DNA of 64,000 nt, taken from Planctomycetota bacterium. Lineage in GTDB: Bacteria; Planctomycetota; B15-G4. Location of the stretch: contig JAJDEO010000002.1 of NCBI GenBank assembly GCA_029259745.1, positions 53,787 to 117,786 of the forward strand, in the 5' to 3' direction. Under the pieces are notes generated by a model. It saw only the letters and a program-made list of their open reading frames with translations, made no database searches and was not told where the DNA came from. Made by a program: the position numbers and the translations under genes. This document shows positions 1 to 55,735 of this stretch, in pieces. Each line of letters begins with the position of its first letter. Within the stretch, counting starts at the first letter, position 1.

Positions 1-2
1 CG

Positions 3-1019
3 CGGTTCAGCGCACCGTTCCTGTGGTCCGAGTGGTCGACGGTTGTCGATGCTTGGCAGGTCGACAACTGGGAGGAGTACCGAACCGTCAAGAGGCTTGG
101 ACGCAAGACCCGCCTGGCTGAGTCCCAGCGGCGCGAGTTGTGGGCCGTGTTCGATGCGGTCCGTGCGAGGCTCGCCGATCAGGGGCGTGTGACGATGGCC
201 GGTGTGCACCGGGCCGTGGCGCAGGCGATCACCGACAGCGGTGCGCGGCCCTACGACTTCGCGATCGTCGACGAGGCGCAGGACGTGAGCGTCCCGCAGC
301 TTCGCTTCCTCGCGGCGCTCGGCGCGGCACGCCCTGATGGGCTCTTCTTCGCTGGCGATCTCGGTCAGCGCATCTTCCGTCAGCCCTTCTCGTGGTCGTC
401 GCTCGGCGTGGAGATCCGCGGGCGGTCGTCGATCCTCCGCGTCAACTACCGAACGTCCCACCAGATCCGCACTGCGGCCGACAGGTTGCTTGCGCTCGAA
501 CTCGCCGACGTCGACGGCAACAAGGAGGACCGTCGCGGAACCGTGTCCGTCTTCAACGGACCGGTACCGGAGATCCAGCTCTTCGACTCAGCATCGGACG
601 AGAGCGAGTTCGTCGGCGAGCGCCTGGCCGCGTGGATGGCCGACGGCATGGCTGCGCACGAGATGGCCGTGTTCGTGCGCAGCGATGCGCAGCTCGCAAG
701 AGCCGAAGAAGCACTCCGCAAGGCAGGCGTCGACTACCGAGTTGTCGGACCCCGCATGGACACGACCCACGGCAAGGCCTCCCTGACGACGATGCACCGC
801 GCCAAGGGCCTCGAGTTCCGCGCCGTAGCCGTCATGGCCTGCGACGACGAGGTCGTGCCGCTCCAAGATCGCATCGAAACCGTCACCGACGACTCCGACC
901 TCGAAGAGGTCTACAACACCGAGCGGCACCTGCTCTACGTCGCCTGCACCCGCGCGAGAGATCATCTGCTGGTGACGGCGGTGGAGCCGGGTTCGGAGTT
1001 TTTGGAGGACATGGCGTGA
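3..1019 (+). CDS. UvrD-like superfamily 1 DNA helicase, C-terminal part (5' end truncated by window start)
   Basis: The reading frame is open from base 3 into the track ORF 138..1019. SF1 helicase motifs are visible: DEAQD (II), GDLGQRIF (III), VNYRTSHQI (IV), TTMHRAKGLEF (V) and LLYVACTRAR (VI). Confidence 0.75.
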   Translation, partial: RFSAPFLWSEWSTVVDAWQVDNWEEYRTVKRLGRKTRLAESQRRELWAVFDAVRARLADQGRVTMAGVHRAVAQAITDSGARPYDFAIVDEAQDVSVPQLRFLAALGAARPDGLFFAGDLGQRIFRQPFSWSSLGVEIRGRSSILRVNYRTSHQIRTAADRLLALELADVDGNKEDRRGTVSVFNGPVPEIQLFDSASDESEFVGERLAAWMADGMAAHEMAVFVRSDAQLARAEEALRKAGVDYRVVGPRMDTTHGKASLTTMHRAKGLEFRAVAVMACDDEVVPLQDRIETVTDDSDLEEVYNTERHLLYVACTRARDHLLVTAVEPGSEFLEDMA

Positions 1020-1056
1020 GGGCGGTGGGTGGCCCGGGGCGTCGGAGGCTGCGAAC

Positions 1057-2628
1057 ATGACAATCTTTGATCGGCTGAAGGCGTTTCTGTCGGGAGGCGC
1101 GCGACCGACATTCGGGGAACTGCACGCAAAAGCAATACGTACACCCGATGAGCCCGCTGGCGAGCAGGATCCGCCCAATCGGTCGCCCGTCGAGGCGGTC
1201 AAGCCAACGCGCGAGTTCGAACTCGTCCGGGATCTACTCAAGGAGGGGTGTGCTCCGTTCGTCCTCGTGATTGGTCAGGCCGGCACCGGGAAGACCACAT
1301 GCATTAACTGGCTTCGCGAGCAGGTCGACGGAAACGTCGTCGTCGTTGCTTTCACGGGGCTCGCAGCCCTGACAGCGGGCGGCCAGACGATCCACTCGTT
1401 CTTCAGGTTCCCGCCGAAGTGGCTCGGTCCGCGTGACATCGAGCTGCATCTTGATCCAGCGATCTACCAGGAGCTCGACGTCCTCGTCATCGACGAGATC
1501 TCGATGGTGCGCGTCGACCTGCTCGATGCCATCGATCGCTTCTTGCGGCTCAACCGGAGTCAACGAAATCCTGCCAATGCGAATCGTCCGTTCGGCGGTG
1601 CGCAGATTGTAGCGTTCGGCGATCTATTCCAGCTTCCCCCGGTGGTGACGCGGGGCGATCAACGCCTGATGGAAAGGGCCGGTTATCTCAGCCAGCACTT
1701 CTTCAGTGCCGAGGCATTGCGCAACCTTGCGCCAGCGACCGTCGAGTTGACGCAGCCATTCCGTCAGCGTGACAGCGTATTTCTGGGGTTGCTTGGATGC
1801 ATACGCGAGGATCGAGACACAGAACGCGCTGTCGAGGAACTCAACGCGCGATGTGCTGAGAGCGGGGCATCGAATGCGGATATCTGGTTGACGGTGGTGC
1901 CGACGCGCGCGCGCGCTGAGCGCGTGAATTTCCGGCAGTTGGACGTGTTGCCAAGCGAGCCTCGCACCTATCAGGGGCAGATCCGCGGGCGGTTCATCTC
2001 GGGGCTGCGCGAGGGGGAGAAGCCCAATGACACGCAGGAAGAACGAAATCTTCCCGCGCCTTTCGAGCTTCAGCTGAAGCCTGGCGCGCGTGTCATCTTC
2101 ACGAAGAACGACGGCGGGCACCAATGGGTCAACGGCACGATGGGCACCGTTGTGGCGACAGAGCCGGAGCACGTCGTCGTCAGGGTTGACGCTGACGGGG
2201 AAGGCGAAGGCGACATCGTCCACGTCGGTCGATCGCGATGGACGAAGGACCGGTACCAGTATGATCGGCTGCTCGGCCGGATTACCCAGGAGGAGGTCGG
2301 GTCCTATTCGCAGATCCCTCTTGCGCCCGCCTGGGCCATCACGATTCATAAGGTCCAGGGCCAGACCCTCGACCGCATCTGCGTCGACCTCGACCGAGGC
2401 GCGTTCGCCACCGGCCAGACCTACGTTGCCATCAGCCGCTGTCGCTCCCTCGATGGGCTCCGCCTTGCACGCCCGATCACGCGTGAGGACGTTCTCTGTG
2501 ACCCACAGGTACGGCGCTTCATGGACAGCGTGCGTCCGTCATTGGCGAATCGACTACTTGTCGAGGAAGGATCGACTCAGGACGAACCGTACGGACCCGC
2601 CGGCGAGAACTATGGCGAACAACGCTGA
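1057..2628 (+). CDS. PIF1/RecD-like (AAA_30) SF1 helicase
   Basis: Walker A GQAGTGKT, PIF1-type GGQTIHSFF, motif II VLVIDEISMV, GDLFQLPPV and a C-terminal WAITIHKVQGQT..YVAISRCRS motif. It starts 37 bp after the previous stop on the same strand. Confidence 0.75.
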   Translation: MTIFDRLKAFLSGGARPTFGELHAKAIRTPDEPAGEQDPPNRSPVEAVKPTREFELVRDLLKEGCAPFVLVIGQAGTGKTTCINWLREQVDGNVVVVAFTGLAALTAGGQTIHSFFRFPPKWLGPRDIELHLDPAIYQELDVLVIDEISMVRVDLLDAIDRFLRLNRSQRNPANANRPFGGAQIVAFGDLFQLPPVVTRGDQRLMERAGYLSQHFFSAEALRNLAPATVELTQPFRQRDSVFLGLLGCIREDRDTERAVEELNARCAESGASNADIWLTVVPTRARAERVNFRQLDVLPSEPRTYQGQIRGRFISGLREGEKPNDTQEERNLPAPFELQLKPGARVIFTKNDGGHQWVNGTMGTVVATEPEHVVVRVDADGEGEGDIVHVGRSRWTKDRYQYDRLLGRITQEEVGSYSQIPLAPAWAITIHKVQGQTLDRICVDLDRGAFATGQTYVAISRCRSLDGLRLARPITREDVLCDPQVRRFMDSVRPSLANRLLVEEGSTQDEPYGPAGENYGEQR

Positions 2629-2679
2629 CCGTCTTCTCGTCTGATATCCTCCCGCCGATAACCTCTGGGGAGAGCCGCC

Positions 2680-3879
2680 TTGCCGTCATCGTTCACGTGG
2701 CTCGACGCCAGCGAGGTGGATCGGCGTCGGGCGCTCGACGTGATCGACTTGTTCAGCGTGCGGGACACGCGCGACCAGCTCGGACTCGCCGGCATTCGCG
2801 ATGCATGGGCGGACCGGCTCGCGCCGGGGACGAGCACGGTTCAGACGCGGGCGCGGTACTTCCTGTTCGTGCCGTGGATGTACCGGGCGCTGGCTGCTTC
2901 CAGCGTGCGCGCGGATCGAGTTGAAGCGCGAGCGAAACGCTTCGAGCTCGGACTCATCAAGGCGATCCGAGCGTCGGATCCTTCGGACGGGCTCATCGGT
3001 GCGCAGGCCGGTCGGGGGCTGCAGCGACTGCCAAGTGACATCTACTGGGGTGGGCTTGGGGCGTGGAAGGTCAGACTGTTCATCGGGGCGCGGACCCGCT
3101 ACCACCGCGCTCTCGGGCAGGAACGCGTCGATTCTGTCTTCCTGACCGACGGCGGCGTCGCAGCCGACTGGAACCCACACCTTCCCGCTCCACCGGACGA
3201 CTTCCCTGACGTTGCCACGCTCGACCTGCGGCGCATCGACGCGGAGTTTCTCCGTGAGCAAATCGTGCAGCATGCGCGCGGGTCCTGGATCGCGCACCTC
3301 GTCATGTCCAACGAGGTCTGGGACACCGTCCCGGCGCTCTGGGATCACCCTGCGACGTCCTCCGCCCCTGCGGCACTGGCGCGGGACATTGAGCACGTGC
3401 GTTTGTTCAGTCTCTCGATGCACGGCGCAGCATTGGTGTACGGCCGGATGCTGTCGGAGCAACTTGGGCGCGCTGACTGGATCGTCGACTGGGGCAAGCG
3501 CTTCGATGCGTGGGTCGAACGAACGCGCGCGTCCGCCGACAGCCTGCAGCACTGGGACACCGACGACTTTTGGAACCGCACACGTCTTCTGAATCCGCGC
3601 ATCCCGAGGAACAGTCGGCAGTTCGCGAGTCGTTGGATCGACGGACTCCGGGTGCGCCTCCGCGCCGGATTGCTTGCCGACCTCGCCGACGATGCTGAGG
3701 TCCGTCGCGACATCACCGCACGCGAGAGGTTCCTCAAGCGACACCGCGCACGGCTCACGCATCGTGAGCACCTGCAGCGCTGGAGCGGCGCCTCGGGTGC
3801 CGACGCGTTCGACTTCCGCTGGCCGGTCACGCAGCGGCTCGTGCGCGACATTCAACTTGGTCTTCGGAGGGATGACTGA
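2680..3879 (+). CDS. Hypothetical protein (399 aa), first gene of a three-gene DUF/PLD/SNF2 operon
   Basis: Long ORF with no recognisable catalytic motif. It starts 51 bp after the PIF1-like stop, and its TGA stop lies 2 nt before the GTG start of the next gene, which is preceded by GGAGG. Confidence 0.6.
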   Translation: MPSSFTWLDASEVDRRRALDVIDLFSVRDTRDQLGLAGIRDAWADRLAPGTSTVQTRARYFLFVPWMYRALAASSVRADRVEARAKRFELGLIKAIRASDPSDGLIGAQAGRGLQRLPSDIYWGGLGAWKVRLFIGARTRYHRALGQERVDSVFLTDGGVAADWNPHLPAPPDDFPDVATLDLRRIDAEFLREQIVQHARGSWIAHLVMSNEVWDTVPALWDHPATSSAPAALARDIEHVRLFSLSMHGAALVYGRMLSEQLGRADWIVDWGKRFDAWVERTRASADSLQHWDTDDFWNRTRLLNPRIPRNSRQFASRWIDGLRVRLRAGLLADLADDAEVRRDITARERFLKRHRARLTHREHLQRWSGASGADAFDFRWPVTQRLVRDIQLGLRRDD

Positions 3880-3881
3880 AG

Positions 3882-5768
3882 GTGCTGACGCCGCGCGACC
3901 GCACCCTGCTCCTCGAGGCGTTACACACGCCCGACGGCTTCCGGCTTGACCAAGCCGTCGGCACGACCTTCACGCTCGACCTGATGGCGCTTCTCACCGT
4001 GCCTTTGGCGTTTACCTTCGCGCACTGGGATGACGACGAAGGCCGGCCGACGCTCGACCCCGTCGCGCTGATCCACGCGCTCCGTGAGCACGCACGTCGC
4101 ATGCACATCTTCTGCCAGGCAGGGGAGATCCGCGCGCCTGGTGCGGGCCAACCATTGTTCACCGCCCTTGAGCCGTCGGTGATCGAGGCGCGCGCGCCGA
4201 AGCCCGGCGGTCTCTTCCACCCGAAGGCCTGGGTCCTGCGCTTCACGAACGCCGACGGCGATGTCATGTATCGCGTGCTCGTCGCCAGCCGCAACCTGAC
4301 CTTCGACCGCTCGTGGGACACGCTGCTCGTGCTCGAAGGATCATTGACTGGCCGCAGCCGCAACGTTCGTGACAGCGTTCCACTCGGTGACTTTGTTGCG
4401 GCGCTCCCCGACCTCGCACTGCGGCGCGTGCCGCAGCAAACGCGTCAAGCGATCCTCGATATGGCCGGCGAGCTACGCCGCGTTCGGTTCGACCCGCCCG
4501 AGCCGTTCAAGGAGCTGCACTTCCATCCCTTCGGCGTCGCTGGCCGCGCGAAGCACTGGCCATACGAAGGCGCATTCAAGGGGGTGGTCGTCTCGCCGTT
4601 TGTCGGCGACGAGATGCTCGCCGACCTCCTCGATACGTGCGAGGACTGGAACCGTCGCGAGGTTGACCTGCAGCTCATCTCGCGGCCTGAGTCTCTGGTC
4701 GGATTGTCGCGCGAAGTCGTCGAGCGCTTCTCCAGCTGCTGGATGCTGTCGGCCGATGCCGACCCCGAGGATGGTGTCGAGGAGTCAGAGGGTGGGGAGG
4801 CCTTCACTACCGACGACGCCCTCACGGGGCTGCATGCCAAACTTGTCGTACTGCACCGTGACCACTACGCGCATGTGTTCACTGGGTCGGCGAACGCGAC
4901 GGTGGCAGCTCATCAGCTCAATGTCGAGTTCATGGTCGAACTTGTCGGTGGTCGCGAAAAATGTGGTCTGCCCGCGTTGATGGGAAGCGATGGCGACGAG
5001 GGCAAGGGCACGCTGCGTGAGTTGCTTGAGCCGTGGGAGCCCGTCGACACCGAGCCGGACGCCGAGCAGGAGCTGATCAACGACCTCGACCGGCGACTCG
5101 CGAGAGCGCGCCTTGCCGTCGGCACGTGCGACCTCATACTCAACGTCGCGCCGACATCGGCCGACGATCGAGGCGACGTCACTTACGACGTTGACGTCAC
5201 CGGCGCGATGCCGGAGATGCCCGCTGGCGTGCGCGTCGTATGTTGGCTGGCAACGCAGGTCGTTCACTGCGCTGTGGAGCCCGCGAAGGGAGACACCGAG
5301 CACGTTGCGCGCTTCACGGACATCGCGTTGATTGATCTCACGGCGTTCCTCGCCTTTGAATGCGTCGCGAGTGAAGGCGGCGTTGAGCGGCGTTCGCGGT
5401 TCGCGCGACACCTGCCCCTGGTTGGCGCGCCCGACGACCGCGAAGAACGTCTCCTGCGCGCCATGCTCAACGATCGCGAGAAGGTCATGCAGCTCCTTCT
5501 GATGCTGCTTGCTGCCGACGACACCGGAGCGCCTCCGCCGGGTTTGGCGGACGGTGCGGGCCTCTGGAGCCGCTGGGGCGGGCCCGATGGCGTGCCACTG
5601 CTCGAGTCGCTCGTCGGTGCCCTCGCGCGCGACCCGTTGAGCCTCGAGCCAGTGCGCCGGCTCGTCGACGACTTGCGGCGGACCGAGGAGGGCGCCGAGC
5701 TGCTTCCCGACGGCTTCGGCGCGATCTGGGCGGGGGTTGAGGCCGCTGCCGGGGAGCTGCGCAAGTGA
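3882..5768 (+). CDS. PLD-like (phospholipase D / nuclease superfamily) protein with two degenerate HKD-type motifs
   Basis: First motif GGLFHPKAWVLRF...VLVASRNLT (HxK then S-x-N). Second motif LHAKLVVLHRDHYAHVFTGSANAT (HxK then GSxN). Both aspartates are replaced. 628 aa with a GTG start. Confidence 0.65.
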   Translation: MLTPRDRTLLLEALHTPDGFRLDQAVGTTFTLDLMALLTVPLAFTFAHWDDDEGRPTLDPVALIHALREHARRMHIFCQAGEIRAPGAGQPLFTALEPSVIEARAPKPGGLFHPKAWVLRFTNADGDVMYRVLVASRNLTFDRSWDTLLVLEGSLTGRSRNVRDSVPLGDFVAALPDLALRRVPQQTRQAILDMAGELRRVRFDPPEPFKELHFHPFGVAGRAKHWPYEGAFKGVVVSPFVGDEMLADLLDTCEDWNRREVDLQLISRPESLVGLSREVVERFSSCWMLSADADPEDGVEESEGGEAFTTDDALTGLHAKLVVLHRDHYAHVFTGSANATVAAHQLNVEFMVELVGGREKCGLPALMGSDGDEGKGTLRELLEPWEPVDTEPDAEQELINDLDRRLARARLAVGTCDLILNVAPTSADDRGDVTYDVDVTGAMPEMPAGVRVVCWLATQVVHCAVEPAKGDTEHVARFTDIALIDLTAFLAFECVASEGGVERRSRFARHLPLVGAPDDREERLLRAMLNDREKVMQLLLMLLAADDTGAPPPGLADGAGLWSRWGGPDGVPLLESLVGALARDPLSLEPVRRLVDDLRRTEEGAELLPDGFGAIWAGVEAAAGELRK

Positions 5769-8700
5769 GCCGCGATGACATGGAACATCCGAGCGCCGAG
5801 CCCACGCTCGCGCGCCTGAAGGGCTTCCAAAGGGCCGCAGTCGAGACGGCGTTCGAGCGGCTTTACACGGCGCCTGACTCGACGCGGCGCTTCCTCGTGG
5901 CAGACGAAGTCGGACTCGGCAAGACGCTCATTGCTCGCGGCATCATCGCCAAGGCCGTCGAACACCTTTGGAACGACGTCGAGCGCATCGACGTCGTCTA
6001 CCTCTGCTCCAACGCCAGAATCGCGAAGCAGAACATCCGCCGGCTCAACCCCTTCCCAGGCCTCTCCATTGCTGAGGCCGACCGCATCACGATGCTCCCG
6101 GTGAAGCTTGGGGCACTCGCCCACGATCGGCTGAACTTCGTGGCGTTCACGCCGGGCACGTCGCTAGATCTGAAGTCGAGCGAGGGACAGCGGCGCGAAC
6201 GTGCGCTTTTGTTCTGGTTGCTGCATGGCCATTGGCACCACGGTGATAACGGCGCAAGAAACCTTCTCGACGGTGCGGTCAAGCGTCGCGATCGCTGGCA
6301 TCAACTCGTGGACGACTTCCCGGCTACGAACCACATCGCGCCGAAGGTCCAGCGGCGCATCTTAGAGGCCCTTGAGAGTGCGGGCGCTTCAGGGACGACG
6401 ACGGGCAAGGGTGGGTTACGAGTTCGCTTCCAGGCTCTGTGCGCGCGGTTCGAGCGTGCGCGGCCGCCGTGGTCGGGTGTCTTACGCGAGGAACAACGCG
6501 AGCTTGTCGGCGAGCTGCGCACGCACGTCGCGAGGGCCTGCATCGACCTGCTCGAGCCTGACCTCGTCATCCTCGACGAGTTTCAGCGCTTCAATGACCT
6601 GCTCGACCCGCGCACCGACAGTGAAGCCGCCCAACTTGCACGACGCCTCTTCGAGTGGAGCGACGAGTCAGCCGAGGCGCGCGTGCTCTTGCTCTCGGCC
6701 ACGCCGTACAAGATGTACACGCTCACTCACGAGGCCGATGAAGACGACCACTACGCCGACTTCCTACGCACGGTCGACTTCCTCGAGCCGGACCACACGC
6801 GCCAAGCACAGCTCCGCCGACACCTCGGTGACTACCGGCGCGAGCTCTACAGCCTCGGAGCGGGCGGCGGCGAGCGTCTGCACGAGGTCAAGGCATCGAT
6901 TGAGCTGGCGTTGCGGCGCGTGATTTCGCGGACAGAGCGGCTCGGAGCCGGTGGCGCGCGCGACGGGATGCTGAAGGCCGTGTCGGTTCCGGGCGTGGCG
7001 CTCGAACCGCGCGACGTGCTCGACTTCGTCTACTTGCAGCGCATCGCCGATTGTCTCGAGCAGCGCAGCGTCGTCGAGTACTGGAAGTCGGCCCCGTACC
7101 TGCTGAACTTCATGGAGGATTACGGGCTCAAGCGCCAGCTCGAAGCCGAGCTGACGCGCCGTCGCCCCGATGCTGAACTTGTCGAGTGTCTTGCTGCCGC
7201 CGATGGCCTGCTGCTCGATGCACGTGGTCTGCGCGACTACGAAGCCGTCGCCCCGGCAAACGGGCGTCTTCGTGCGCTGGCCGACGACCTCTTCAAGAGC
7301 GGGTTGTGGCGCTGTCTTTGGCTGCCCCCGTCGCGACCAAACTATGCGCTCGGCGGTCCCTTCGCCGAGGCCTCGTCGCACTCAGCGGGCACGACGAAGC
7401 GGCTCGTCTTCTCGGCGTGGACCGTCGTGCCGAAGGTCATTGCGGCGTTGCTTAGTTATGAACTCGAACGCCGTAGCTTCCACGCCTTCGGCGGCGAGGT
7501 TGAGAACACGTCGGAGGCTCGCAAGAAGCGCGCGCCGCTGCTCCGGTTCGCGCGCAGCGAAGGACGGCTTTCCGGCATGCCGGTGCTGGCGTTGGCGTAT
7601 CCGTCGCCGGCCCTCGCGCGTCTCGGCGATCCGCTGGACGTCGCAGGCCGATTTGGAGAGAACACCGCGCAGGACGACCTCGTTGACGTTGTCGCCGCGC
7701 GCATCGAGACAGACCTCGCACCGATCCTCGCGCAGCATGCGAGCGAGCAGGGCGGCCCGGATGACGATTCGTGGTACTGGCAGGCACCTATCTTGCTCGA
7801 CCGCGCTGCTGACAAAGCAGGCACCGAAGCCTGGTGGTCGGAGGACGCGCTCGCGGCGCGCTGGACGGCGGCCGGTGACGACGATGGCGACGGAGGCCGT
7901 CTATGGACGGAGCACGTCGAGGAAGGCGTACGTGTCGCGCTGGGGGACCACACGCGCCTCGGTCGGCCACCCGCCGACCTGGTGACGACCCTTGCTCGCT
8001 TGGCGATCGCGGGGCCGGCCGTCTGTGCCCTACGCTCCTTCGAGCGCGTCCTCGACACCAGCGACGAGGATGCAGTGCGGGTCCGCCTCGCAGCCGGCCG
8101 GATCGGCTTCGCGTTCCGCTCGCTGTTCAACCGCCCCGAAGCGATGGCATTGCTCCGTGCAGGTCGCCGCGATACGCCGTACTGGCGACTCGTGCTCGGG
8201 CACGGCCTGGACGGCGACATCGACGCTGTACTCACCGAGCACATCCACGTCCTCCGCGATCTTCAGGGCTTGTTCGACGCTCTGCCGGGCGACGCGGCCG
8301 AGCGGCTCGCGAGAGTCGTTGAGGAGACCCTGTCGATCCGCGCCTCGTCCCAGCCATACGACGTGGTCCAGGCGTTGGGGGATGATGGTCAGGTCGAGCT
8401 GAACAAGAACGTTCGCAACCTGCGCGGCCACGTGGCGATGCGCTTCAGCACCGACAAGAGTGAGGACGAGGCCGGCGGTGTCCGCGCCGACACGGTTCGT
8501 GACGCGTTCAACTCACCCTTCTGGCCGTTCGTGCTGACGACGACCTCGGTAGGGCAGGAGGGCCTCGACTTCCACGCATGGTGCCACGCGGTCGTCCACT
8601 GGAATCTCCCGTCGAACCCAGTTGATCTCGAGCAGCGCGAGGGCCGCATACACCGCTTCAAGGGGCACGCCATCCGCAAGAACGTGGCGCGACGTCATGG

Positions 8701-9031
8701 CGCCGCACTCAACATCAAGGCGGGCGAGGATCCATGGTCGCTCATGTTCGACCAGGCCGTTGCGGATGTGGCCGATGACGCGCGCGGTCTCGTTCCATGG
8801 TGGGTCTATCCGCTTGAGGGCGGAGCGTCCATCGAGCGCCACGTGCCGATGCTTCCGCTGTCGAGGGAGCAGAGCAAGCTCGAGGCGCTCCGTAAGTCGC
8901 TCGCGGTGTACCGCATGGTGTTCGGACAGCCGCGGCAGGACGACCTCTTGGCTTACCTGATGGAGCACGTGTCACGCGAGGATATCGAGCAAAAGATGGC
9001 CGGGATGCGGATGGACTTGTCGCCGAGGTAG
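5765..9031 (+). CDS. SNF2/DExH-family SF2 helicase (1088 aa)
   Basis: Motif I VADEVGLGKTLIARG, motif II VILDEFQRF, motif III LLLSATPYKM and a C-terminal helicase core TTTSVGQEGLDFHAW...QREGRIHRFKGH. Its start overlaps the PLD gene stop (GTGA). Confidence 0.8.
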   Translation: MSRDDMEHPSAEPTLARLKGFQRAAVETAFERLYTAPDSTRRFLVADEVGLGKTLIARGIIAKAVEHLWNDVERIDVVYLCSNARIAKQNIRRLNPFPGLSIAEADRITMLPVKLGALAHDRLNFVAFTPGTSLDLKSSEGQRRERALLFWLLHGHWHHGDNGARNLLDGAVKRRDRWHQLVDDFPATNHIAPKVQRRILEALESAGASGTTTGKGGLRVRFQALCARFERARPPWSGVLREEQRELVGELRTHVARACIDLLEPDLVILDEFQRFNDLLDPRTDSEAAQLARRLFEWSDESAEARVLLLSATPYKMYTLTHEADEDDHYADFLRTVDFLEPDHTRQAQLRRHLGDYRRELYSLGAGGGERLHEVKASIELALRRVISRTERLGAGGARDGMLKAVSVPGVALEPRDVLDFVYLQRIADCLEQRSVVEYWKSAPYLLNFMEDYGLKRQLEAELTRRRPDAELVECLAAADGLLLDARGLRDYEAVAPANGRLRALADDLFKSGLWRCLWLPPSRPNYALGGPFAEASSHSAGTTKRLVFSAWTVVPKVIAALLSYELERRSFHAFGGEVENTSEARKKRAPLLRFARSEGRLSGMPVLALAYPSPALARLGDPLDVAGRFGENTAQDDLVDVVAARIETDLAPILAQHASEQGGPDDDSWYWQAPILLDRAADKAGTEAWWSEDALAARWTAAGDDDGDGGRLWTEHVEEGVRVALGDHTRLGRPPADLVTTLARLAIAGPAVCALRSFERVLDTSDEDAVRVRLAAGRIGFAFRSLFNRPEAMALLRAGRRDTPYWRLVLGHGLDGDIDAVLTEHIHVLRDLQGLFDALPGDAAERLARVVEETLSIRASSQPYDVVQALGDDGQVELNKNVRNLRGHVAMRFSTDKSEDEAGGVRADTVRDAFNSPFWPFVLTTTSVGQEGLDFHAWCHAVVHWNLPSNPVDLEQREGRIHRFKGHAIRKNVARRHGAALNIKAGEDPWSLMFDQAVADVADDARGLVPWWVYPLEGGASIERHVPMLPLSREQSKLEALRKSLAVYRMVFGQPRQDDLLAYLMEHVSREDIEQKMAGMRMDLSPR

Positions 9032-9035
9032 CGCC

Positions 9036-9056
9036 AGTCAGCGTCAGTCGCTGACT
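9036..9056 (+). terminator. Candidate stem-loop terminator after the SNF2 gene
   Basis: Inverted repeat AGTCAGCG-tcagt-CGCTGACT lies 5 nt after the TAG stop. There is no T-tract, which is usual for high-GC genomes. Confidence 0.3.
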
Positions 9057-9421
9057 TGCATGGAACAGTCCTGCGATCGGGAATCATCTGACGTGCGCAA
9101 TCGCGCACATCCGCTTGGCGTTCCCCTGTCACCGGGCATCCGGCCAGGCCTCCGAATCATCTCCCAGCACTGGATGGTCGACCCTACGGGCCCGCCAGGC
9201 TTCGCGGCGTCGAACGCGGTACGCGCGACGATTGACTAGGGCTGTCGCTGGCGGCGGTGCAGGTCTCTTCCCCGTCGTCGGGACGTCGTAGTTCGCAGGG
9301 ATGACGCAACGCACGGTCCTCGATCGACCACATCGAACCCCGGGCGACTACCGTCTCCGCTATCTATCAAGCAGCCCGGACGGCCCCTGCGTCTCGCGCC
9401 TGGAACTTTCGCTCAACCTTC

Positions 9422-9802
9422 GTGCGATTCGATCCCGATGAGTTGAGGATTGATGTCAAAACCTCTTCGAGAGTTGGCCGAGTGACTACAGCGACAATAG
9501 TTGAGACGCGTGAGTGTGATTTCTGCGGTGAAGACGTGCTTGTGAAGGCAAAGAAGTGCAAGCACTGCCACGAGACACTTGATCCGGCAATGCGCAAGGC
9601 TGAAGAGGCTATGCGCGTTTCGACAGCCGGAAGTGGCAGCGCCTCCTCGGCAGCGTCCGCAACCGTGGTCGTTGCAGGTCCGGACACTCGGCCTAACTTC
9701 CCCCACGTGTTTCACTTTCTCATGACGGTCGTCACCGTCGGATTCTGGGGGTTCGTCTGGGTGCTGCATTACTGCTGTCGTGGCGAGACTTACAAGAACT
9801 AG
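9422..9802 (+). CDS. Small zinc-ribbon membrane protein (CxxC...CxxC plus C-terminal TM helix)
   Basis: CDFCGED..CKHC zinc-ribbon pattern and hydrophobic tail FHFLMTVVTVGFWGFVWVL. Codon usage is visibly lower-GC than the flanks (aca, ata, gtt, gat, aag). The true start is uncertain (ATG 9422 or a downstream GTG). Confidence 0.45.
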   Translation: MRFDPDELRIDVKTSSRVGRVTTATIVETRECDFCGEDVLVKAKKCKHCHETLDPAMRKAEEAMRVSTAGSGSASSAASATVVVAGPDTRPNFPHVFHFLMTVVTVGFWGFVWVLHYCCRGETYKN

Positions 9803-9880
9803 TCGGCTATCTCACCTCGCGAGTGCCGCACGACGGCCTGCCCGGGCGGCCGAGTCGCCATCTGTCCCCTCAGGGCGAAG

Positions 9881-9957
9881 TGGTCGGGGTGACTGGATTC
9901 GAACCAGCGACCTTCTGCTCCCAAAGCAGACGCTCTACCAAACTGAGCCACACCCCG
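9881..9957 (-). tRNA. tRNA-Pro (anticodon TGG) with encoded CCA
   Basis: Hand-folded cloverleaf: acceptor CGGGGTG/CACCCCG, D-stem GCTC/GAGC, anticodon stem TCTGC/GCAGA with loop TTTGGGA, T-arm GCTGG-TTCGAAT-CCAGT, discriminator A, then CCA. Confidence 0.85.
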
Positions 9958-9988
9958 ACGGTGTGGGGGCATTGTAGGGGGCGGGGCG

Positions 9989-11467
9989 GTGGAGGCAATC
10001 GTCTCAAGGGGTGGGGCGTCGGGGGCCGACCGGGATGGGATGGAACTCTCGCGCGATGGGCTGCTGAGGTGGGTGGGGCTGCGTCTCGGCGCGGGGGTTC
10101 TGCTCGGTGGGGTGTGCGGGTGTTCGGAGCCTGCGCCTGCGCCGGTGCGTGCGGGGCCGGCGCAGCATCTGTTGCTCGTTGTCGTCGACACGCTGCGGGC
10201 CGATCACGTGGGCGTGCTCGGGGCGGCGCGGGACACGACGCCGCAGCTCGACGCGCTCGCGGAGCGCGGCGTCGTCTTCTCCCAGGCCATCGCGCCGTCG
10301 CCGTGGACGCGGCCCTCGATGGGGACGCTCATGACGGGCCGTCTTCCGCTCGCGCTGGGACTCACGGATCACAACTTCCGCAACCCGCAGACCGACGGGG
10401 ACGTGCTGCCGCAGTCGGCGCTGACGCTCGCCGAGGTCCTCGGCTCGGCCGACTTCGCCACGAGCGGCGTCGTCGCGAACATCAACGTCGAACCCGTCTT
10501 CGGTTTCGACCAGGGCTTCGCCGACTACGTCTCCGTGCCCGCCGAGATGGCCTCCGACCCGGCCTGGCGCGAGCGCAACGACTGGCTCCGCGACACGTCG
10601 TCACGCGTCACGACCCGCGCGCGCGACTGGCTCGCCGACTTCGCCGCCACGAACAGCGTCGACGACCGCGCCTTCCTCTACGTGCACTACCTCGACCCCC
10701 ACGATCCCTACACGCCCGCAGCAAAGTTCGACGCGCTGTTCGACGCCGATCGCTCGTCCGGCAATCCGTGGGCCGAGGACGAGCGCCTCTACGACGCCGA
10801 GATTCGTCAGATCGACGCCGAGGTCGGACGCCTGCTCGACGGGCTCGACGACGCCGGGATCGCCGACGACACCCTCGTCGTCATCGTCTCCGACCACGGT
10901 GAAGAGTTCGGAGACCACGGCGGCACGCGTCATGGCCACAGCGTCTACGACGAACTTCTGCGCGTGCCGTGGATCATGGCCGGCCCCGGCGTCGCGCGCG
11001 AACGACGTCGCGATCAGGTGGGGCTCATCGACGTCATGCCCACCGTCCTCGACGCGCTCGACATCGCGGCGCCGACGGGTCTGCGCGGTACTTCACAACT
11101 CGCCCTGACGCCGACGACCCGCGCCACGCGCAGCTCGGTCAGCGCGGAGCACGCGTCGGCAGCGGTGTTCAGTGAGTCGGCCTACGTCCCGCTCAACGCT
11201 CTGCGCGCACCACCCTGGAAGCTCATCGTCGACACGGAGACGAACGCAGCGTCGCTCTTCAACCTCGCGCGCGATCCCCGCGAACACGACGACGTCGCGG
11301 CGCACCATCCGCACGTCGTGCAGCGCTTGCTCGAACGCTGGCGAGACGAGCGCGCAACATCCGAGCGCAACCGTCTCCCGAGCGACGCGACCAGCACGGG
11401 CCTCTCATCGGCCCAGCGCGAACAGCTCGAAGCGCTCGGCTACATCGGCGACGACCACGCGCGCTGA
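9989..11467 (+). CDS. Sulfatase-like hydrolase (alkaline-phosphatase superfamily), probable lipoprotein
   Basis: LLLVVVDTLRADHVG metal-binding motif and SPWTRPSMGTLMTGR (variant C/S-x-P-x-R region). Signal/lipobox LLGGVCGCS. The start could be the internal ATG near 10037. Confidence 0.65.
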   Translation: MEAIVSRGGASGADRDGMELSRDGLLRWVGLRLGAGVLLGGVCGCSEPAPAPVRAGPAQHLLLVVVDTLRADHVGVLGAARDTTPQLDALAERGVVFSQAIAPSPWTRPSMGTLMTGRLPLALGLTDHNFRNPQTDGDVLPQSALTLAEVLGSADFATSGVVANINVEPVFGFDQGFADYVSVPAEMASDPAWRERNDWLRDTSSRVTTRARDWLADFAATNSVDDRAFLYVHYLDPHDPYTPAAKFDALFDADRSSGNPWAEDERLYDAEIRQIDAEVGRLLDGLDDAGIADDTLVVIVSDHGEEFGDHGGTRHGHSVYDELLRVPWIMAGPGVARERRRDQVGLIDVMPTVLDALDIAAPTGLRGTSQLALTPTTRATRSSVSAEHASAAVFSESAYVPLNALRAPPWKLIVDTETNAASLFNLARDPREHDDVAAHHPHVVQRLLERWRDERATSERNRLPSDATSTGLSSAQREQLEALGYIGDDHAR

Positions 11468-50929: not shown

Positions 50930-52261
50930 TCAGTCGGTCGTGCTCGGTTCCTCGTCCTTCCACTGCAGGAAGAAGCGCTCGCCCGCGAAGACGGTGACGA
51001 GGCAGACCGCAGCGGCGATGAGCACCGGTGGGTCGCTTCGACCTTTGGTGACGACGAGCGCACCCAGTGCGAGGGTGTCGAGCACGATGGCAGTGACGGG
51101 AACCCAGACGCGTAGCTCGAGCTCGTCCCGGAGATACCGCACGGCACCCCAGTGAATCGCGACGTCCATGACGAGGTACACGATCGCGCCGAGCGCCGCG
51201 ATCCGACCGAGGTCGAATGCGACGGTCAGGACCATGGCGAACACGATCGTGTAGACGATCGTATGTGTATGGACGTTGCCGGGCATCCCGAAGTGTCGAT
51301 GCGGCACGAGGTTCATCTTCGTGAGCATTGTCAGGATACGCGAGACGGCGAAGACGCTCGCGATGATGCCGGAGAGTGTTGCGAGGATTGCCAGTACGAC
51401 GGTCAGTGTGACGCCCGTGTCTCCGAACGCTGGTCGCGCCGCTTCGGCGAGGGCAAAGTCACGCGCCTGGACGATCTCCTCGATTGTCAGGCTGTTTGCG
51501 ACGGCGAGGGCGACGACCGCGTACGCGACGGTACAGATGGCGAGCGAGATCACGATCGCTCGTCCGACGTTCTTCTCCGGTTCGCGGATCTCCGCACCGC
51601 TCGTCGTGATCGTCGTGAAGCCCTTGTAGGCCAGGATCCCGATCGCCGTTGCCGGGAGGAGTCCCCAGAGCGACGACGTGTCCGAGACCGACGGCGCGTC
51701 GAGGCGCACGCCGGACGCCCAGAGTGCGGCGCCAGCGAACGCCATGATGCCTGCAATCTTGACGAACGCCATCGCGATCGAAAGACGTCCGATCAGCTTG
51801 TTCCCGGAGATGTTGACCACGAAGGCCACGAGCAGCAGTCCGACGCCGAGTGCAGGGACGAGCCACTCTTCGTCCTTGGCGTCGAAGAGCTGCAGCGTAT
51901 ACGTGCCGAACGTTCGGGCGACGAGGCTCTCGTTGATGACCATCGAGATGTACATGAGCAATGAACATGCGGCCGTGACCGTGCCCGGGCCATAGGCCTG
52001 CTTCAAGTACATGGCGATGCCACCGGCCGACGGATTGGCGTTCGACATCTTCACGTAGGTATACGAGCTGATGCCGCTGACGATCGCAGCGAGCACGAAC
52101 GCGATCGGAAACAGCGGTCCAGCCAGCTCGGCGAGTTGGCCCGTCAGCGCAAACACACCGGCGCCGATCATGACACCCGTTCCCATCGCAACGGCGCCGC
52201 CGAGTGACAGGCTGTCCTCCTCGAACGCGCCTTCGGGGCCCGAGTCGTGGTGGTCTTTCAC
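50930..52261 (-). CDS. APC-family amino-acid permease
   Basis: 12-TM APC pattern (GTGVMIGAGVFALTG...). Its start abuts the multicopper oxidase stop. Confidence 0.7.
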   Translation of the reverse strand: MKDHHDSGPEGAFEEDSLSLGGAVAMGTGVMIGAGVFALTGQLAELAGPLFPIAFVLAAIVSGISSYTYVKMSNANPSAGGIAMYLKQAYGPGTVTAACSLLMYISMVINESLVARTFGTYTLQLFDAKDEEWLVPALGVGLLLVAFVVNISGNKLIGRLSIAMAFVKIAGIMAFAGAALWASGVRLDAPSVSDTSSLWGLLPATAIGILAYKGFTTITTSGAEIREPEKNVGRAIVISLAICTVAYAVVALAVANSLTIEEIVQARDFALAEAARPAFGDTGVTLTVVLAILATLSGIIASVFAVSRILTMLTKMNLVPHRHFGMPGNVHTHTIVYTIVFAMVLTVAFDLGRIAALGAIVYLVMDVAIHWGAVRYLRDELELRVWVPVTAIVLDTLALGALVVTKGRSDPPVLIAAAVCLVTVFAGERFFLQWKDEEPSTTD

Positions 52262-53580
52262 GTCGCGTCGATCCCGTCACGCTCGAGCTGATCGTCCGAT
52301 GCCCGCTTGGCAGACGTTCCTGGCGGATGGTCGTACCAGCCGGGGTCTTCTCCGCGTGCGAGTGCGTCGTCGGAGAGCCCATCGCGCACCTTGATCACAC
52401 CCGCCATACCGCCGAGGCCGATCGGTGACTCGAACCCGCCGCGCGCCTTGGCCATCGGGATGCTGTTGTCGGGGATGGCCATGTGTCCGTCGGTCATGTC
52501 TTTCATGCCCTTCGCTCCCATCGTCATGTACCCCGGGATGACGGAGCGCACGCGTTCATCGAAGCCTTTGGCATCGAAGCCGATCATGTTCGGGAACGCG
52601 TGACCCATTTGGTTCATGACGTGGTGCGTCATGTGGCAGTGGAACGCCCAGTCGCCGGGGTAGATCGCATCGAACTCGATGTCGCGCGTCTCACCGACGC
52701 CCACGAGAGTTGTCACGCGCTTGCGCTGCTGGTCGGTGGGGATGCGTTGACCATCGACGGCGGTTTCGTGGAACTCGTATCCGTGGAGGTGCATCGGGTG
52801 ATGATCCATGGCGGAGAGATTGCCGATCCGGATGCGCACGCGTTGGCCCGTGCGTACGACGAGAGGTTCGAGGTAGGGGAACACGCGACCGTTCATCGTG
52901 AGGACGTTGAAGTCGCTCATCTCGTTGGGGTTCGGGCGTCGTGCCCCGGCGTCGATGCGCCACTCGTGAAGCATCAAGGCGAAGTCACGATCGACCGGCG
53001 GGTCGACGGCATCGCGCGGGTGGATGATGAACATGCCCGTCAACCCGAGTCCCTCTTGGGTCATCGTGTCGTGGTGGCTGTGGAACATGTACGTGCCGTT
53101 CTGCACGAGCTCGAACTCATACACCCAGGTTTCGCCCGGCGGGATCGGTTCTTGCGTGAGACCGCTCACGCCGTCCATGCCGTTGGGGAGGATGAAACCG
53201 TGCCAGTGAACGGTGGTGGGTGCGGGAAGTTCGTTCGTGACGTAGATGCGGACGATGTCGCCTTCGACCGCCTCGATCACCGGCCCGTTCACCTGACCGT
53301 TGTAGCCCCAGCAGAGCGCCGAAAGGCCCGGAGCGAACGAGTGCTCGAACTCCTTGGCGACGAGATGGAAGACCTTGGCGCCGGCACTGATGCGGAACGG
53401 AACCGTTGCACCACTCGGCACGATGACGGGGCGATAGTGCTCGTCGGGGAGCCCGAGCGGTTGCGCTGCGACGCGCGCTGTCGTCTCGGCCGTCTCTCCA
53501 GCGCTGGCGACACGCGAAGAGAGTGCAACCGCGGCGCCGACTGTTGCGCCGGAGAGGAGTAGTTCTCGTCGAGTGGGCAT
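52258..53580 (-). CDS. Multicopper oxidase (CopA/CueO-like) with a twin-arginine signal
   Basis: Copper-ligand motifs TVHWHGF, HPMHLHGYEF and AFHCHMTHHVM. Tat motif TRRELLL. Start preceded by AGGAGG; the track ORF extends to 53772. Confidence 0.85.
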   Translation of the reverse strand: MPTRRELLLSGATVGAAVALSSRVASAGETAETTARVAAQPLGLPDEHYRPVIVPSGATVPFRISAGAKVFHLVAKEFEHSFAPGLSALCWGYNGQVNGPVIEAVEGDIVRIYVTNELPAPTTVHWHGFILPNGMDGVSGLTQEPIPPGETWVYEFELVQNGTYMFHSHHDTMTQEGLGLTGMFIIHPRDAVDPPVDRDFALMLHEWRIDAGARRPNPNEMSDFNVLTMNGRVFPYLEPLVVRTGQRVRIRIGNLSAMDHHPMHLHGYEFHETAVDGQRIPTDQQRKRVTTLVGVGETRDIEFDAIYPGDWAFHCHMTHHVMNQMGHAFPNMIGFDAKGFDERVRSVIPGYMTMGAKGMKDMTDGHMAIPDNSIPMAKARGGFESPIGLGGMAGVIKVRDGLSDDALARGEDPGWYDHPPGTSAKRASDDQLERDGIDAT

Positions 53581-53584
53581 CGGT

Positions 53585-55006: not shown

Positions 55007-55374
55007 GGATGACCCCCGTGCTCGTGACGGGCGCCCTCGTGACGGGGCTCCGCTGCACGCGGGGCTGCCGGATCATCTTCGTGGCTTTCCATCGTGCCCG
55101 CCGGTTCCATGCCGTCACCAGGCATCGTTGAGTGCTCGCTGGACTCACCGGAGGAGCCGAGCAGCGGGGGCGCGAGGTCGAACGGGCTCGGCGCATGCAG
55201 CGCTCCCCCGGTCGTGTTCGAGGCCAGCGCGGGATGGCCTTCGGGGACCTCGAACTCGTAGGTGCTCGCGCAGCCCGAAATGCTTGCGAGGGCAATCGCC
55301 GCGAACGCTTGCGCGGCGCGCCGACGAGCGGTTCGAGACGGCGTTCGCGGTTGCGAGCAGGCCTGGCATTCCAT
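55003..55374 (-). CDS. Met/His-rich periplasmic lipoprotein (putative copper-binding)
   Basis: Lipobox LASISGCAS with C-terminal HSTMPGDGMEPAGTMESHEDD...RHEGARHEHGGHP. ATGA overlap with the downstream OMF gene. Start refined inside track ORF 55003..55545. Confidence 0.5.
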   Translation of the reverse strand: MECQACSQPRTPSRTARRRAAQAFAAIALASISGCASTYEFEVPEGHPALASNTTGGALHAPSPFDLAPPLLGSSGESSEHSTMPGDGMEPAGTMESHEDDPAAPRAAEPRHEGARHEHGGHP

Positions 55375-55441
55375 GAGAGCTCCTGTGATACGCGCGAGAG
55401 GAGATGCTATACCCGGGTTGGGTATAACGTCTGGAGCCAAC

Positions 55442-55735
55442 ATGTCGACCGAATCCGAGAGAAAGAAGCTCCTCGCTCGCCTGAGCCGCATCGAAGGCCA
55501 GGTAGGCGGAGTCAAGCGCATGGTGAACGAGGACAAGTACTGCATGGACGTTCTGCAGCAGATCTCGGCGATCCAGGGCGCTCTGGCTCAGGTCAGCAAG
55601 CAGCTTTTGCAGGGGCATCTGCGGACGTGCGTTCCGGCGGCGTTTCGCTCGAATGACGCCGAGTTGCAGGAGCAGATGGTCGCCGAGCTTGTCGATCTCT
55701 ATGCACGCACGCGGCGTGGGGGGCCATCCAAGTGA
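55442..55735 (+). CDS. csoR: CsoR/RcnR-family metal-sensing transcriptional repressor
   Basis: [39 protein letters not shown] with the conserved Cys and His ligands (C..H..C pattern). 97 aa. It overlaps the copA start. Confidence 0.8.

What the first reader, a model, noticed from the sequence alone, without database searches (positions are those of the whole stretch)
1..9957. Probable genomic island on the 3' side of tRNA-Pro(TGG)
The helicase/PLD genes end about 850 bp from the 3' end of a minus-strand tRNA-Pro. Housekeeping genes begin immediately on the other side of the tRNA. The small gene between them has noticeably lower GC and A/T-ending codons. The 3' ends of tRNA genes are classic integration sites, so 1..9880 plausibly represents horizontally acquired DNA. 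No integrase is visible, but one may lie beyond the window start.
Basis: partly seen in the sequence, partly recalled or inferred. Interest (0 to 1): 0.55.

Follow-up and report, generated by a model that had tools for sequence, protein, structure and literature searches.

The report
Anti-phage defence island beside tRNA-Pro
The first 9.9 kb of the window is the visible end of a horizontally acquired cluster of anti-phage defence genes, including a complete Azaca system, that stops exactly at the 3' end of a tRNA-Pro gene; this is a common kind of genomic island, and its integrase and repeat boundaries could not be seen.

Summary
tRNA-Pro(TGG) lies at 9881-9957 on the minus strand, and the last large gene ends 849 nt from its 3' end. 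The small gene in between has 56% GC.

The "helicase/PLD genes" are a complete Azaca defence system (ZacA, ZacB, ZacC), preceded by a PIF1/Dda-like helicase and a UvrD-like helicase. A Logan contig identical to the window shows that the UvrD gene follows a Type III methyltransferase, so the island runs past the window start.

Codon usage of all six genes departs from the other 32 genes in the window (p about 5e-4). The closest relative found shares ten syntenic backbone genes and the same tRNA-Pro. It carries unrelated genes on the tRNA's 3' side, and DNA similarity stops at the last tRNA base.

Homologues of the methyltransferase-UvrD module and the nearest Azaca cassette also lie against the 3' ends of other tRNAs elsewhere, sometimes with a recombinase.

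No integrase and no tRNA-derived repeat occur in the 11.2 kb visible, and no strictly empty site was found.

Verdict: a real but ordinary defence island. Site-specific integration is plausible but unproven.

The parts
3..1019 (+). C-terminal 338 aa of a 690-aa UvrD-like SF1 helicase. The gene starts about 1.05 kb before the window.
   Evidence: Pfam UvrD_C 1.2e-21. The full gene is at L001:247-2319, and L001 is 100% identical to the window over their 3906-nt overlap. Homologues are 61-69% identical across many phyla.
1057..2628 (+). PIF1/Dda-like SF1B helicase, 523 aa. Role uncertain: orphan defence gene or the element's own replication helicase.
   Evidence: Pfam PIF1 1.9e-24. PHROG 325 Dda-like helicase 1.7e-69. 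GTGKT at 76 and DEISM at 146. GC 0.62, GC3 0.73. It is not linked to UvrD or Azaca in any other locus and has no close relative in viral contigs.
2680..3879 (+). ZacA (DUF6361), first gene of the Azaca system
   Evidence: PADLOC ZacA 1.8e-109 over the full length. Pfam DUF6361 1.4e-50.
3882..5768 (+). ZacB, PLD-like nuclease of Azaca
   Evidence: PADLOC ZacB 1.5e-163 over the full length. HxK at residues 113 and 318, GSxN at 335.
5765..9031 (+). ZacC, SF2 helicase/NTPase of Azaca. The start overlaps the ZacB stop; the true start may be the ATG at 5780.
   Evidence: PADLOC ZacC E=0, 1124 bits. GLGKT at 50 and DEFQ at 271. The 1088-aa form is not on record.
9032..9421 (.). Non-coding spacer between ZacC and the small gene
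   Evidence: No Pfam or PHROG match for its ORF. tblastn with five recombinases from related islands finds nothing. No terminator-like site.
9422..9802 (+). Small zinc-ribbon plus C-terminal transmembrane protein. It is the most compositionally foreign gene and lies 78 nt from the tRNA 3' end.
   Evidence: GC 0.559, GC3 0.63, codon distance 1.42. CxxC at 32 and 46. 887 representatives at E<=1e-3, best 58% identity. Weak matches to PHROGs of unknown function.
9881..9957 (-). tRNA-Pro(TGG) with encoded CCA; marks the island boundary
   Evidence: ARAGORN. One mismatch to the tRNA of relatives L082 and L084; similarity stops at its last base.
9971..9998 (-). Promoter-like site for the tRNA (TTGCCT-16-TACAAT)
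   Evidence: Consensus scan. TACAAT is also present upstream of the tRNA in L082.
9989..11467 (+). Sulfatase on the 5' side of the tRNA. It is not part of the island but is absent in the closest relative.
   Evidence: Pfam Sulfatase 7.2e-47. Typical codon usage, 0.862. L082 and L083 have the tRNA directly after DinB.

Best explanation
Window 1..9880 is the tRNA-proximal part (at least 11.2 kb counting the off-window extension) of a horizontally acquired, mosaic anti-phage defence island that abuts the 3' end of tRNA-Pro(TGG). Reading towards the tRNA, it holds: a Type III R-M methyltransferase (only its last 81 codons are seen, off-window), a UvrD-like helicase, a PIF1/Dda-like helicase, a complete Azaca system (ZacA, ZacB, ZacC), and a small zinc-ribbon membrane protein.

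Shown: the gene identities, the atypical codon usage, the absence of these genes from the nearest syntenic relative, the break of similarity at the tRNA's last base, and the recurrence of the same modules against tRNA 3' ends elsewhere.

Inferred (about 0.5): the island arose when an integrative element recombined into the tRNA-Pro 3' end. Independent defence cassettes then accreted in the slot between UvrD and the tRNA. The recombinase was either lost or lies beyond the window.

Function of the main cargo, from published work on a Bacillus homologue: the ZacABC complex uses the ZacC ATPase and the ZacB PLD nuclease to degrade phage DNA.
For: Gene content:
- PADLOC gives full-length ZacA, ZacB and ZacC hits (1.8e-109, 1.5e-163, 0), with catalytic motifs intact.
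- The upstream fragment in L001 is a Type III Mod C-terminus.

Foreignness:
- GC3 is 0.63-0.84 against 0.858 +/- 0.04, and codon distance is higher, p about 5e-4. Tetranucleotide divergence is elevated across 1-10 kb.
- UvrD homologues are 61-69% identical in Spirochaetales, Proteobacteria, Acidobacteriota, Planctomycetota, Chloroflexota, Verrucomicrobiota and other phyla.
- ZacA's nearest relatives are only 55-58% identical and sit in unrelated contexts, whereas backbone proteins are 57-92% identical to L082.

Boundary:
- L082 and L083 keep RibE through DinB and then tRNA-Pro, followed by unrelated genes. Alignment identity ends at ...CCGACCA.

Analogy with other loci:
- Among 80 loci with UvrD homologues, 12 of 14 downstream tRNAs are on the minus strand facing UvrD. 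Four lie within 600 nt where about 0.4 is expected.
- L016 and L018 (large serine recombinases) and L063 (tyrosine integrase) have a recombinase next to the tRNA. L066 has a 630-aa DUF6538 protein in that position.
- The closest Azaca cassette (L090) ends 365 nt from a minus-strand tRNA-Gly.

Mechanism of Azaca: bioRxiv 10.1101/2025.07.10.664194.
Against: No integrase, recombinase or remnant exists in 1..9880 or anywhere else in the window. No repeat of the tRNA longer than 10 nt exists in the region from 1300 nt before the window start to position 9800. The tRNA-proximal position, where recombinases sit in L016, L018 and L063, is occupied by Azaca and a small ORF.

The comparator genomes are distant (LexA 73-85% identical). 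They carry other lineage-specific genes rather than an empty site, so the synteny break could reflect old rearrangement. The compositional shift is modest for UvrD, ZacB and ZacC. No att repeat was found within 10 kb in the analogous loci either.
Confidence: 0.7

Rival explanations
1. This is a defence-gene hotspot that does not depend on integration into the tRNA. The region is a variable chromosomal slot whose content is exchanged by homologous recombination of flanking core genes or by illegitimate insertion. The tRNA is simply the last conserved feature before the slot.
For: No integrase or att repeat is visible. Three relatives each have different, mutually unrelated genes after tRNA-Pro, and the 5' side also varies (sulfatase here, QueF and an amidohydrolase in L085). 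In L030, L064, L065 and L079 the UvrD module abuts a tRNA with no room for a recombinase between UvrD and the tRNA; the ORFs scanned in those loci were a Type III Res subunit and ordinary chromosomal genes.
Against: The strong orientation bias (12 of 14) and the proximity of homologous modules to tRNA 3' ends. Recombinases are adjacent to the tRNA in L016, L018 and L063. The exact coincidence of the break with the last tRNA base is what site-specific integration predicts.
Confidence: 0.22
2. The genes are native and vertically inherited. The helicase and PLD genes are long-standing residents, and their composition differs only because of gene-specific constraints.
For: GC of UvrD, ZacA, ZacB and ZacC (0.66-0.67) is close to the window mean. 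Some background genes (DoxX, g38019) have a similar codon distance.
Against: All six genes lie on the atypical side (p about 5e-4). They are absent from the closest syntenic relative. UvrD is 61-69% identical across phyla, against LexA at 55-73% for most hits and 82-85% only in the three closest relatives. The nearest ZacA is only 58% identical and sits in another context.
Confidence: 0.05

Closest known systems
Azaca anti-phage system (ZacABC; named in PADLOC-DB; biochemistry in bioRxiv 10.1101/2025.07.10.664194)
   Same: Three co-oriented, tightly packed genes in the order DUF6361, PLD-like nuclease, SF2 helicase. Full-length HMM matches. The HxK and Walker A/B motifs are conserved.
   Different: The host is a high-GC uncultured bacterium, probably Planctomycetota, rather than Bacillus. 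ZacA is at most 58% identical to any sequence on record. Function was not tested here.
tRNA-associated genomic islands and integrative elements (classical tRNA 3'-end integration with a tyrosine or serine recombinase and att repeats)
   Same: It abuts the 3' end of a tRNA exactly. It carries accessory cargo, has atypical codon usage, and is absent from a syntenic relative. Homologous modules sit in islands with tRNA-proximal recombinases.
   Different: No recombinase and no att repeat occur in the 11.2 kb nearest the tRNA. The far end was not seen.
Type III restriction-modification module with an attached UvrD-like helicase (as in L081: HTH, Res, Mod, UvrD)
   Same: The 81 codons upstream of UvrD are 84-94% identical to the Mod C-termini that precede UvrD homologues in 65 of 80 loci. 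The L081 Mod matches PADLOC MTase_III with E=0.
   Different: Only the Mod C-terminus is visible for this organism, and it is off-window. Res was not seen. Here a PIF1-like helicase and Azaca follow UvrD, which no other locus shows.
Gabija (GajA, GajB) and DISARM (DrmA-E)
   Same: The UvrD-like protein hits GajB models (about 1e-22). ZacB and ZacC hit DrmC and DrmD weakly.
   Different: There is no GajA (OLD/Toprim nuclease) and no DrmA or DrmB (DUF1998). The hits cover only generic helicase and PLD motifs and fall far below family cut-offs.

Membership tests
Azaca defence system | ZacA (DUF6361 protein) present | tested here: met
   PADLOC ZacA 1.8e-109 covering 1-396 of 396. Pfam DUF6361 1.4e-50.
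Azaca defence system | ZacB PLD-like nuclease with HxK motifs | tested here: met
   PADLOC ZacB 1.5e-163. HPK at 113, HAK at 318, GSAN at 335.
Azaca defence system | ZacC SF2 helicase with Walker A and B motifs | tested here: met
   PADLOC ZacC E=0 (1124 bits). GLGKT at 50, DEFQ at 271.
Azaca defence system | Three genes contiguous on one strand in the order A-B-C | tested here: met
   2680-3879, 3882-5768 and 5765-9031, with gaps of +2 and -4 nt. The same architecture is seen in L090 and L093.
Azaca defence system | Protects against phage; the complex degrades phage DNA | not testable with these tools
   Known only for the Bacillus homologue.
tRNA-integrated genomic island | Boundary at the 3' end of a tRNA gene | tested here: met
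   Similarity to L082 and L083 ends at the last tRNA base. tRNA call.
tRNA-integrated genomic island | Integrase or recombinase gene inside the island | tested here: not met
   None in window 1-9880 or in the first 1300 nt of L001. The remainder of the island lies outside the available sequence, because look-ups to the source contig returned nothing.
tRNA-integrated genomic island | Direct repeat of the tRNA 3' segment at the far end (att pair) | tested here: inconclusive
   No match longer than 10 nt in the region from 1300 nt before the window start to position 9800. The far end is not in the available sequence.
tRNA-integrated genomic island | Composition or codon usage differs from the host backbone | tested here: met
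   Mann-Whitney p = 6e-4 (GC3) and 4.8e-4 (codon distance) for 6 genes against 32. Tetranucleotide KL is elevated.
tRNA-integrated genomic island | Absent from related genomes that keep the flanking backbone (empty or alternative site) | tested here: inconclusive
   L082 and L083 (LexA 85% identical) keep the backbone and tRNA but carry other genes. No strictly empty site was found, and the relatives are distant.
Type III restriction-modification | Mod methyltransferase plus Res helicase-nuclease | not testable with these tools
   Only the last 81 residues of Mod are visible, in L001. Res was not seen.
Gabija | GajA OLD-family nuclease next to the GajB UvrD-like helicase | tested here: not met
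   No GajA hit among the neighbours. The upstream neighbour is a methyltransferase.
DISARM | DrmA helicase and DrmB (DUF1998) together with DrmC | tested here: not met
   Only sub-threshold DrmC and DrmD motif hits. No DUF1998 protein.

The most novel reading that the evidence does not exclude
The Type III Mod-UvrD module may be the conserved core of an unrecognised and exceptionally promiscuous family of tRNA-targeting integrative defence elements. The Mod C-terminus has a median 89% amino-acid identity across more than ten phyla. The family would have two cargo slots: one between Mod and UvrD, and one between UvrD and the tRNA. On this reading, the window shows a recombinase-less descendant whose second slot captured Azaca and a PIF1-like helicase, and the helicase could itself be a new single-gene defence or the element's replication helicase.
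Probability: 0.25. Interest if true: 0.55.

Novelty: new member of a known kind. Interest (0 to 1): 0.3.

Why it matters
The finding correctly flags accessory DNA and, with tools, resolves it into named parts. It gives a complete Azaca system in a high-GC, probably planctomycete lineage, stacked with a Type III R-M-linked UvrD-like helicase and an orphan PIF1-like helicase at a tRNA boundary. This adds one more example of defence-island organisation and a divergent Azaca homologue for comparative work. It does not change how such islands are understood. The recurrent link between the Mod-UvrD module and tRNA 3' ends across phyla is the only element that might repay further study.

Tried and rejected
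1. Extending upstream. The source is an NCBI contig of 188,037 bp, but exact look-ups for LexA, ZacC and P0001 returned nothing. Only short Logan contigs were returned: L001 adds 1.3 kb, and L089 adds nothing.
2. The single genome-contig scan, run with UvrD, did not contain the source genome.
3. Locating the far junction through the orthologue of L082's tRNA-flank FG-GAP gene. No hit lay on the 188-kb contig, and no relative above 37% identity exists.
4. att search by pattern, repeat finder and short-word blastn. Only chance matches of 10 nt or less were found. The same was true in 11 analogous loci.
5. Integrase remnants. tblastn with five recombinases or recombinase-like proteins from related islands against the whole window found nothing.
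6. The small ORF as a homologue of L082's tRNA-adjacent 187-aa gene. No similarity.
7. PIF1 relatives in viral contigs. None.
8. The L090 87-aa ORF next to tRNA-Gly looked, from memory, like an integrase N-terminus. Pfam gave no match, so the idea is not used.
9. A fold clue for the N-terminal 240 aa of the UvrD-like protein. No Pfam or PDB sequence match.
10. Gabija and DISARM membership were rejected because the partner genes are missing.
11. The metagenome-contig scan was not used. The 90%-identity clusters of the island proteins have a single member, and the closest JGI LexA is 72% identical, so neither the island nor a close host relative can be in that collection.
Full report
**Observation**

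ARAGORN finds a single tRNA in the 64-kb window, tRNA-Pro(TGG) at 9881..9957 on the minus strand. Its 3' end, with encoded CCA, therefore faces lower coordinates. A promoter-like TTGCCT-16-TACAAT site lies just upstream of it at 9998..9971.

All substantial genes to the left are on the plus strand with short gaps:
- 3..1019
- 1057..2628
- 2680..3879
- 3882..5768
- 5765..9031
- a small ORF at 9422..9802

The small ORF has GC 0.559 and GC3 0.63.

**What the genes are**

PADLOC models identify 2680..9031 as a complete Azaca system:
- ZacA (DUF6361): E 1.8e-109
- ZacB (PLD-like): E 1.5e-163
- ZacC (SF2 helicase): E 0, 1124 bits

Each match is full-length, and Pfam agrees for DUF6361. ZacB keeps two HxK motifs (residues 113 and 318) and a GSxN motif. 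ZacC keeps GLGKT and DEFQ.

A recent preprint shows that a Bacillus ZacABC complex degrades phage T4 DNA. All three proteins, the nuclease site and the ZacC Walker A motif are needed (bioRxiv 10.1101/2025.07.10.664194). Hits to DISARM and Gabija models cover only generic motifs, and the partner genes are missing.

The other genes:
- 1057..2628 is a PIF1/Dda-like SF1B helicase (Pfam PIF1 1.9e-24; PHROG 325 1.7e-69).
- 3..1019 is the C-terminal half of a UvrD-like helicase.
- The small ORF encodes a CxxC...CxxC zinc ribbon followed by a hydrophobic C-terminus. It belongs to a real, widespread, unnamed family: 887 representatives at E<=1e-3, 139 at E<=1e-10. It has weak matches to phage protein families of unknown function.

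**The island runs off the window**

A 5.2-kb Logan contig (L001, sample SRR15505515) is 100% identical to window 1..3906 and adds 1300 nt upstream. It shows the full 690-aa UvrD-like gene. Abutting its start codon are the last 81 codons of another gene.

That fragment is 84-94% identical (median 89%) to the C-termini of large methyltransferases. These lie upstream of UvrD homologues in 65 of 80 loci from other genomes. In L081 the methyltransferase matches PADLOC MTase_III with E=0 and is preceded by HTH and Res genes.

So the left neighbour is a Type III R-M module, and the finding's coordinate 1 is not an island boundary.

**Evidence for foreign origin**

- Codon usage. The six genes have GC3 of 0.63-0.84 against 0.858 +/- 0.040 for 32 other genes in the window. 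Their synonymous-codon distance is 0.955-1.42 against 0.873 +/- 0.114. Mann-Whitney p is 6e-4 and 4.8e-4 respectively.
- k-mers. Tetranucleotide divergence is raised in all ten 2-kb windows that start within the first 10 kb, and six of them exceed the 85th percentile.
- Mosaic structure. The degree of deviation differs between modules: the small ORF is most deviant, then PIF1, then ZacA, then the rest. This suggests several separate acquisitions.
- Spread across phyla. The UvrD-like protein has full-length homologues at a flat 61-69% identity in Spirochaetales, Gamma-, Beta- and Deltaproteobacteria, Acidobacteriota, Planctomycetota, Verrucomicrobiota, Chloroflexota, Latescibacterota, Armatimonadota, Nitrospira and others. 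None of these loci has the PIF1 or Zac genes.
- Azaca is patchy. ZacA's nearest relatives are only 55-58% identical. They lie in other defence contexts, next to DUF1998 and PLD genes in L090 and an SNF2 helicase in L093. More distant relatives are named from Planctomycetota, Anaerolineales, Gammaproteobacteria, Actinomycetota and Myxococcota.

**Comparison with relatives of the host**

LexA homologues point to a Planctomycetota-like lineage. The named hits are Planctomycetota MAGs, and PSCyt/PSD-domain proteins occur in L085.

The closest accessible relatives are L082 and L083 (LexA 85% identical). They share ten syntenic backbone genes, RibE to DinB, at 57-92% protein identity. Their tRNA-Pro(TGG) differs from the window's at one base. 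In the DNA alignment, identity runs through the tRNA and stops at its last base.

Beyond the tRNA they carry a 187-aa membrane protein and FG-GAP surface proteins. These are unrelated to anything in the window.

Other relatives:
- L084 (LexA 82%): the contig ends inside the tRNA's 3' end.
- L085 (LexA 73%): has tRNA-Pro near LexA, but with other genes on both sides.
- L087 (LexA 70%): has lost this arrangement.

The defence genes are therefore absent from the nearest relative, and the break is exactly at the tRNA. However, this is an alternative-content site, not an empty one. The L082 flank gene has no orthologue on the source contig and no relative above 37% identity anywhere. The region 3' of this tRNA is thus variable in every lineage sampled.

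**Evidence on mechanism from analogous loci**

I looked at tRNAs around the UvrD gene in the 80 loci with UvrD homologues, each oriented with UvrD on the plus strand:

| Region | Bases scanned | tRNAs found |
|---|---|---|
| Upstream of UvrD | 572 kb | 5 |
| Downstream of UvrD | 594 kb | 14 |

Of the 14 downstream tRNAs, 12 are on the minus strand with the 3' end facing UvrD, as in the window. My calculation gives a binomial two-sided p of about 0.013. Four lie within 600 nt of the UvrD stop, where about 0.4 is expected from the upstream density (my calculation, Poisson p about 7e-4).

In four of these loci the gene next to the tRNA is a recombinase or recombinase-like:
- L018, tRNA-Ser: large serine recombinase, with a primase nearby
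- L016, tRNA-Met: large serine recombinase, with a primase nearby
- L063, tRNA-Ala: tyrosine integrase
- L066, tRNA-Glu: a 630-aa protein that matches only Pfam DUF6538, a domain I recall from integrase N-termini (memory, not tested)

Ordinary chromosomal genes lie beyond the tRNA in L030, L064, L065 and L079. The closest Azaca cassette (L090) also ends 365 nt from the 3' end of a minus-strand tRNA-Gly.

These parallels make tRNA-targeted integration the most likely origin of the window's island. On this reading, PIF1, Azaca and the small ORF occupy the variable slot between UvrD and the tRNA.

**What is missing**

No integrase, recombinase or transposase domain occurs in 1..9880 or anywhere else in the window. 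tblastn with five recombinases or recombinase-like proteins from the analogous islands finds no remnant. No repeat of the tRNA or its flank longer than 10 nt exists in the region from 1300 nt before the window start to position 9800.

Recombinases are usually tRNA-proximal in such islands (my own knowledge, and seen in L016, L018 and L063). Their absence from that position here means either loss, as in the recombinase-less loci L030, L064, L065 and L079, or a distal location.

I could not read further upstream. The source contig (188,037 bp, NCBI) is known to the protein index, but look-ups to it returned nothing.

**Verdict**

The interpretation, horizontally acquired DNA bounded by the tRNA 3' end, is supported at about 0.7-0.8. 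The specific mechanism, integrase-mediated insertion with an att pair, remains an inference at about 0.5.

The main rival is a recombination-driven defence hotspot whose edge merely coincides with the tRNA (about 0.2). Vertical inheritance is unlikely (about 0.05).

This is a new member of a known kind: a defence island carrying Azaca. Interest is low to moderate.

Noticed in passing
L001:2-247 (off-window, about 1.05-1.3 kb before window position 1); L002-L081: The C-terminus of a Type III Mod methyltransferase upstream of the UvrD-like gene is 84-94% identical (median 89%) across more than ten phyla. UvrD itself is only 61-69% identical. In 41 of 65 loci, 1-5 kb of variable cargo sits between Mod and UvrD.
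   Followed up: partly
L016, L018, L030, L044, L046, L063-L066, L079, L081: Homologues of the Mod-UvrD module lie repeatedly against the 3' ends of different tRNA genes (Asn, Gln, Arg, Phe, Glu, Ser, Lys, Met, Ala). 12 of 14 downstream tRNAs are in the facing orientation. Three loci keep a tRNA-proximal serine or tyrosine recombinase, and a fourth has a DUF6538 protein in that position.
   Followed up: partly
L001:247-950 (N-terminal ~240 aa of the UvrD-like protein, off-window): The N-terminal region has no Pfam match and no PDB sequence match. By eye the first ~90 residues resemble a RelE/ParE-like toxin motif. This impression comes from memory and was not tested.
   Followed up: partly
window 9989-11467: A lipoprotein-like sulfatase sits between DinB and the 5' side of tRNA-Pro here but is absent in L082 and L083, where the tRNA follows DinB directly. 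Its codon usage is host-like. This is either a loss in the relative or an older gain here.
   Followed up: partly
L090:5007-11831: The nearest Azaca cassette (ZacA 58%, ZacB 58%, ZacC 65% identical) lies next to DISARM-like genes (DUF1998/MZB and PLD). It ends 365 nt from the 3' end of a minus-strand tRNA-Gly(CCC), with an unassigned 87-aa ORF in between.
   Followed up: partly
L093:1-243: A second Azaca locus has, about 2 kb upstream and on the opposite strand, a UvrD-like C-terminal fragment. It is 86% identical over 81 aa to the window's UvrD.
   Followed up: no
L084 (ends at 5790 inside tRNA-Pro); L091 (ends about 60 nt before the tRNA-Gly position seen in L090): Logan contigs break at or just before the tRNA in two independent samples. 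This fits strain-level variation or repeats at these junctions, but it may be an assembly accident.
   Followed up: no
window 50930-58080: A cluster of an amino-acid permease, a multicopper oxidase, an outer-membrane efflux protein and a copper-type P-ATPase has lower GC (0.636-0.640) and raised tetranucleotide divergence at 51-53 kb. It may be a second, older acquisition. No mobility genes were seen.
   Followed up: partly
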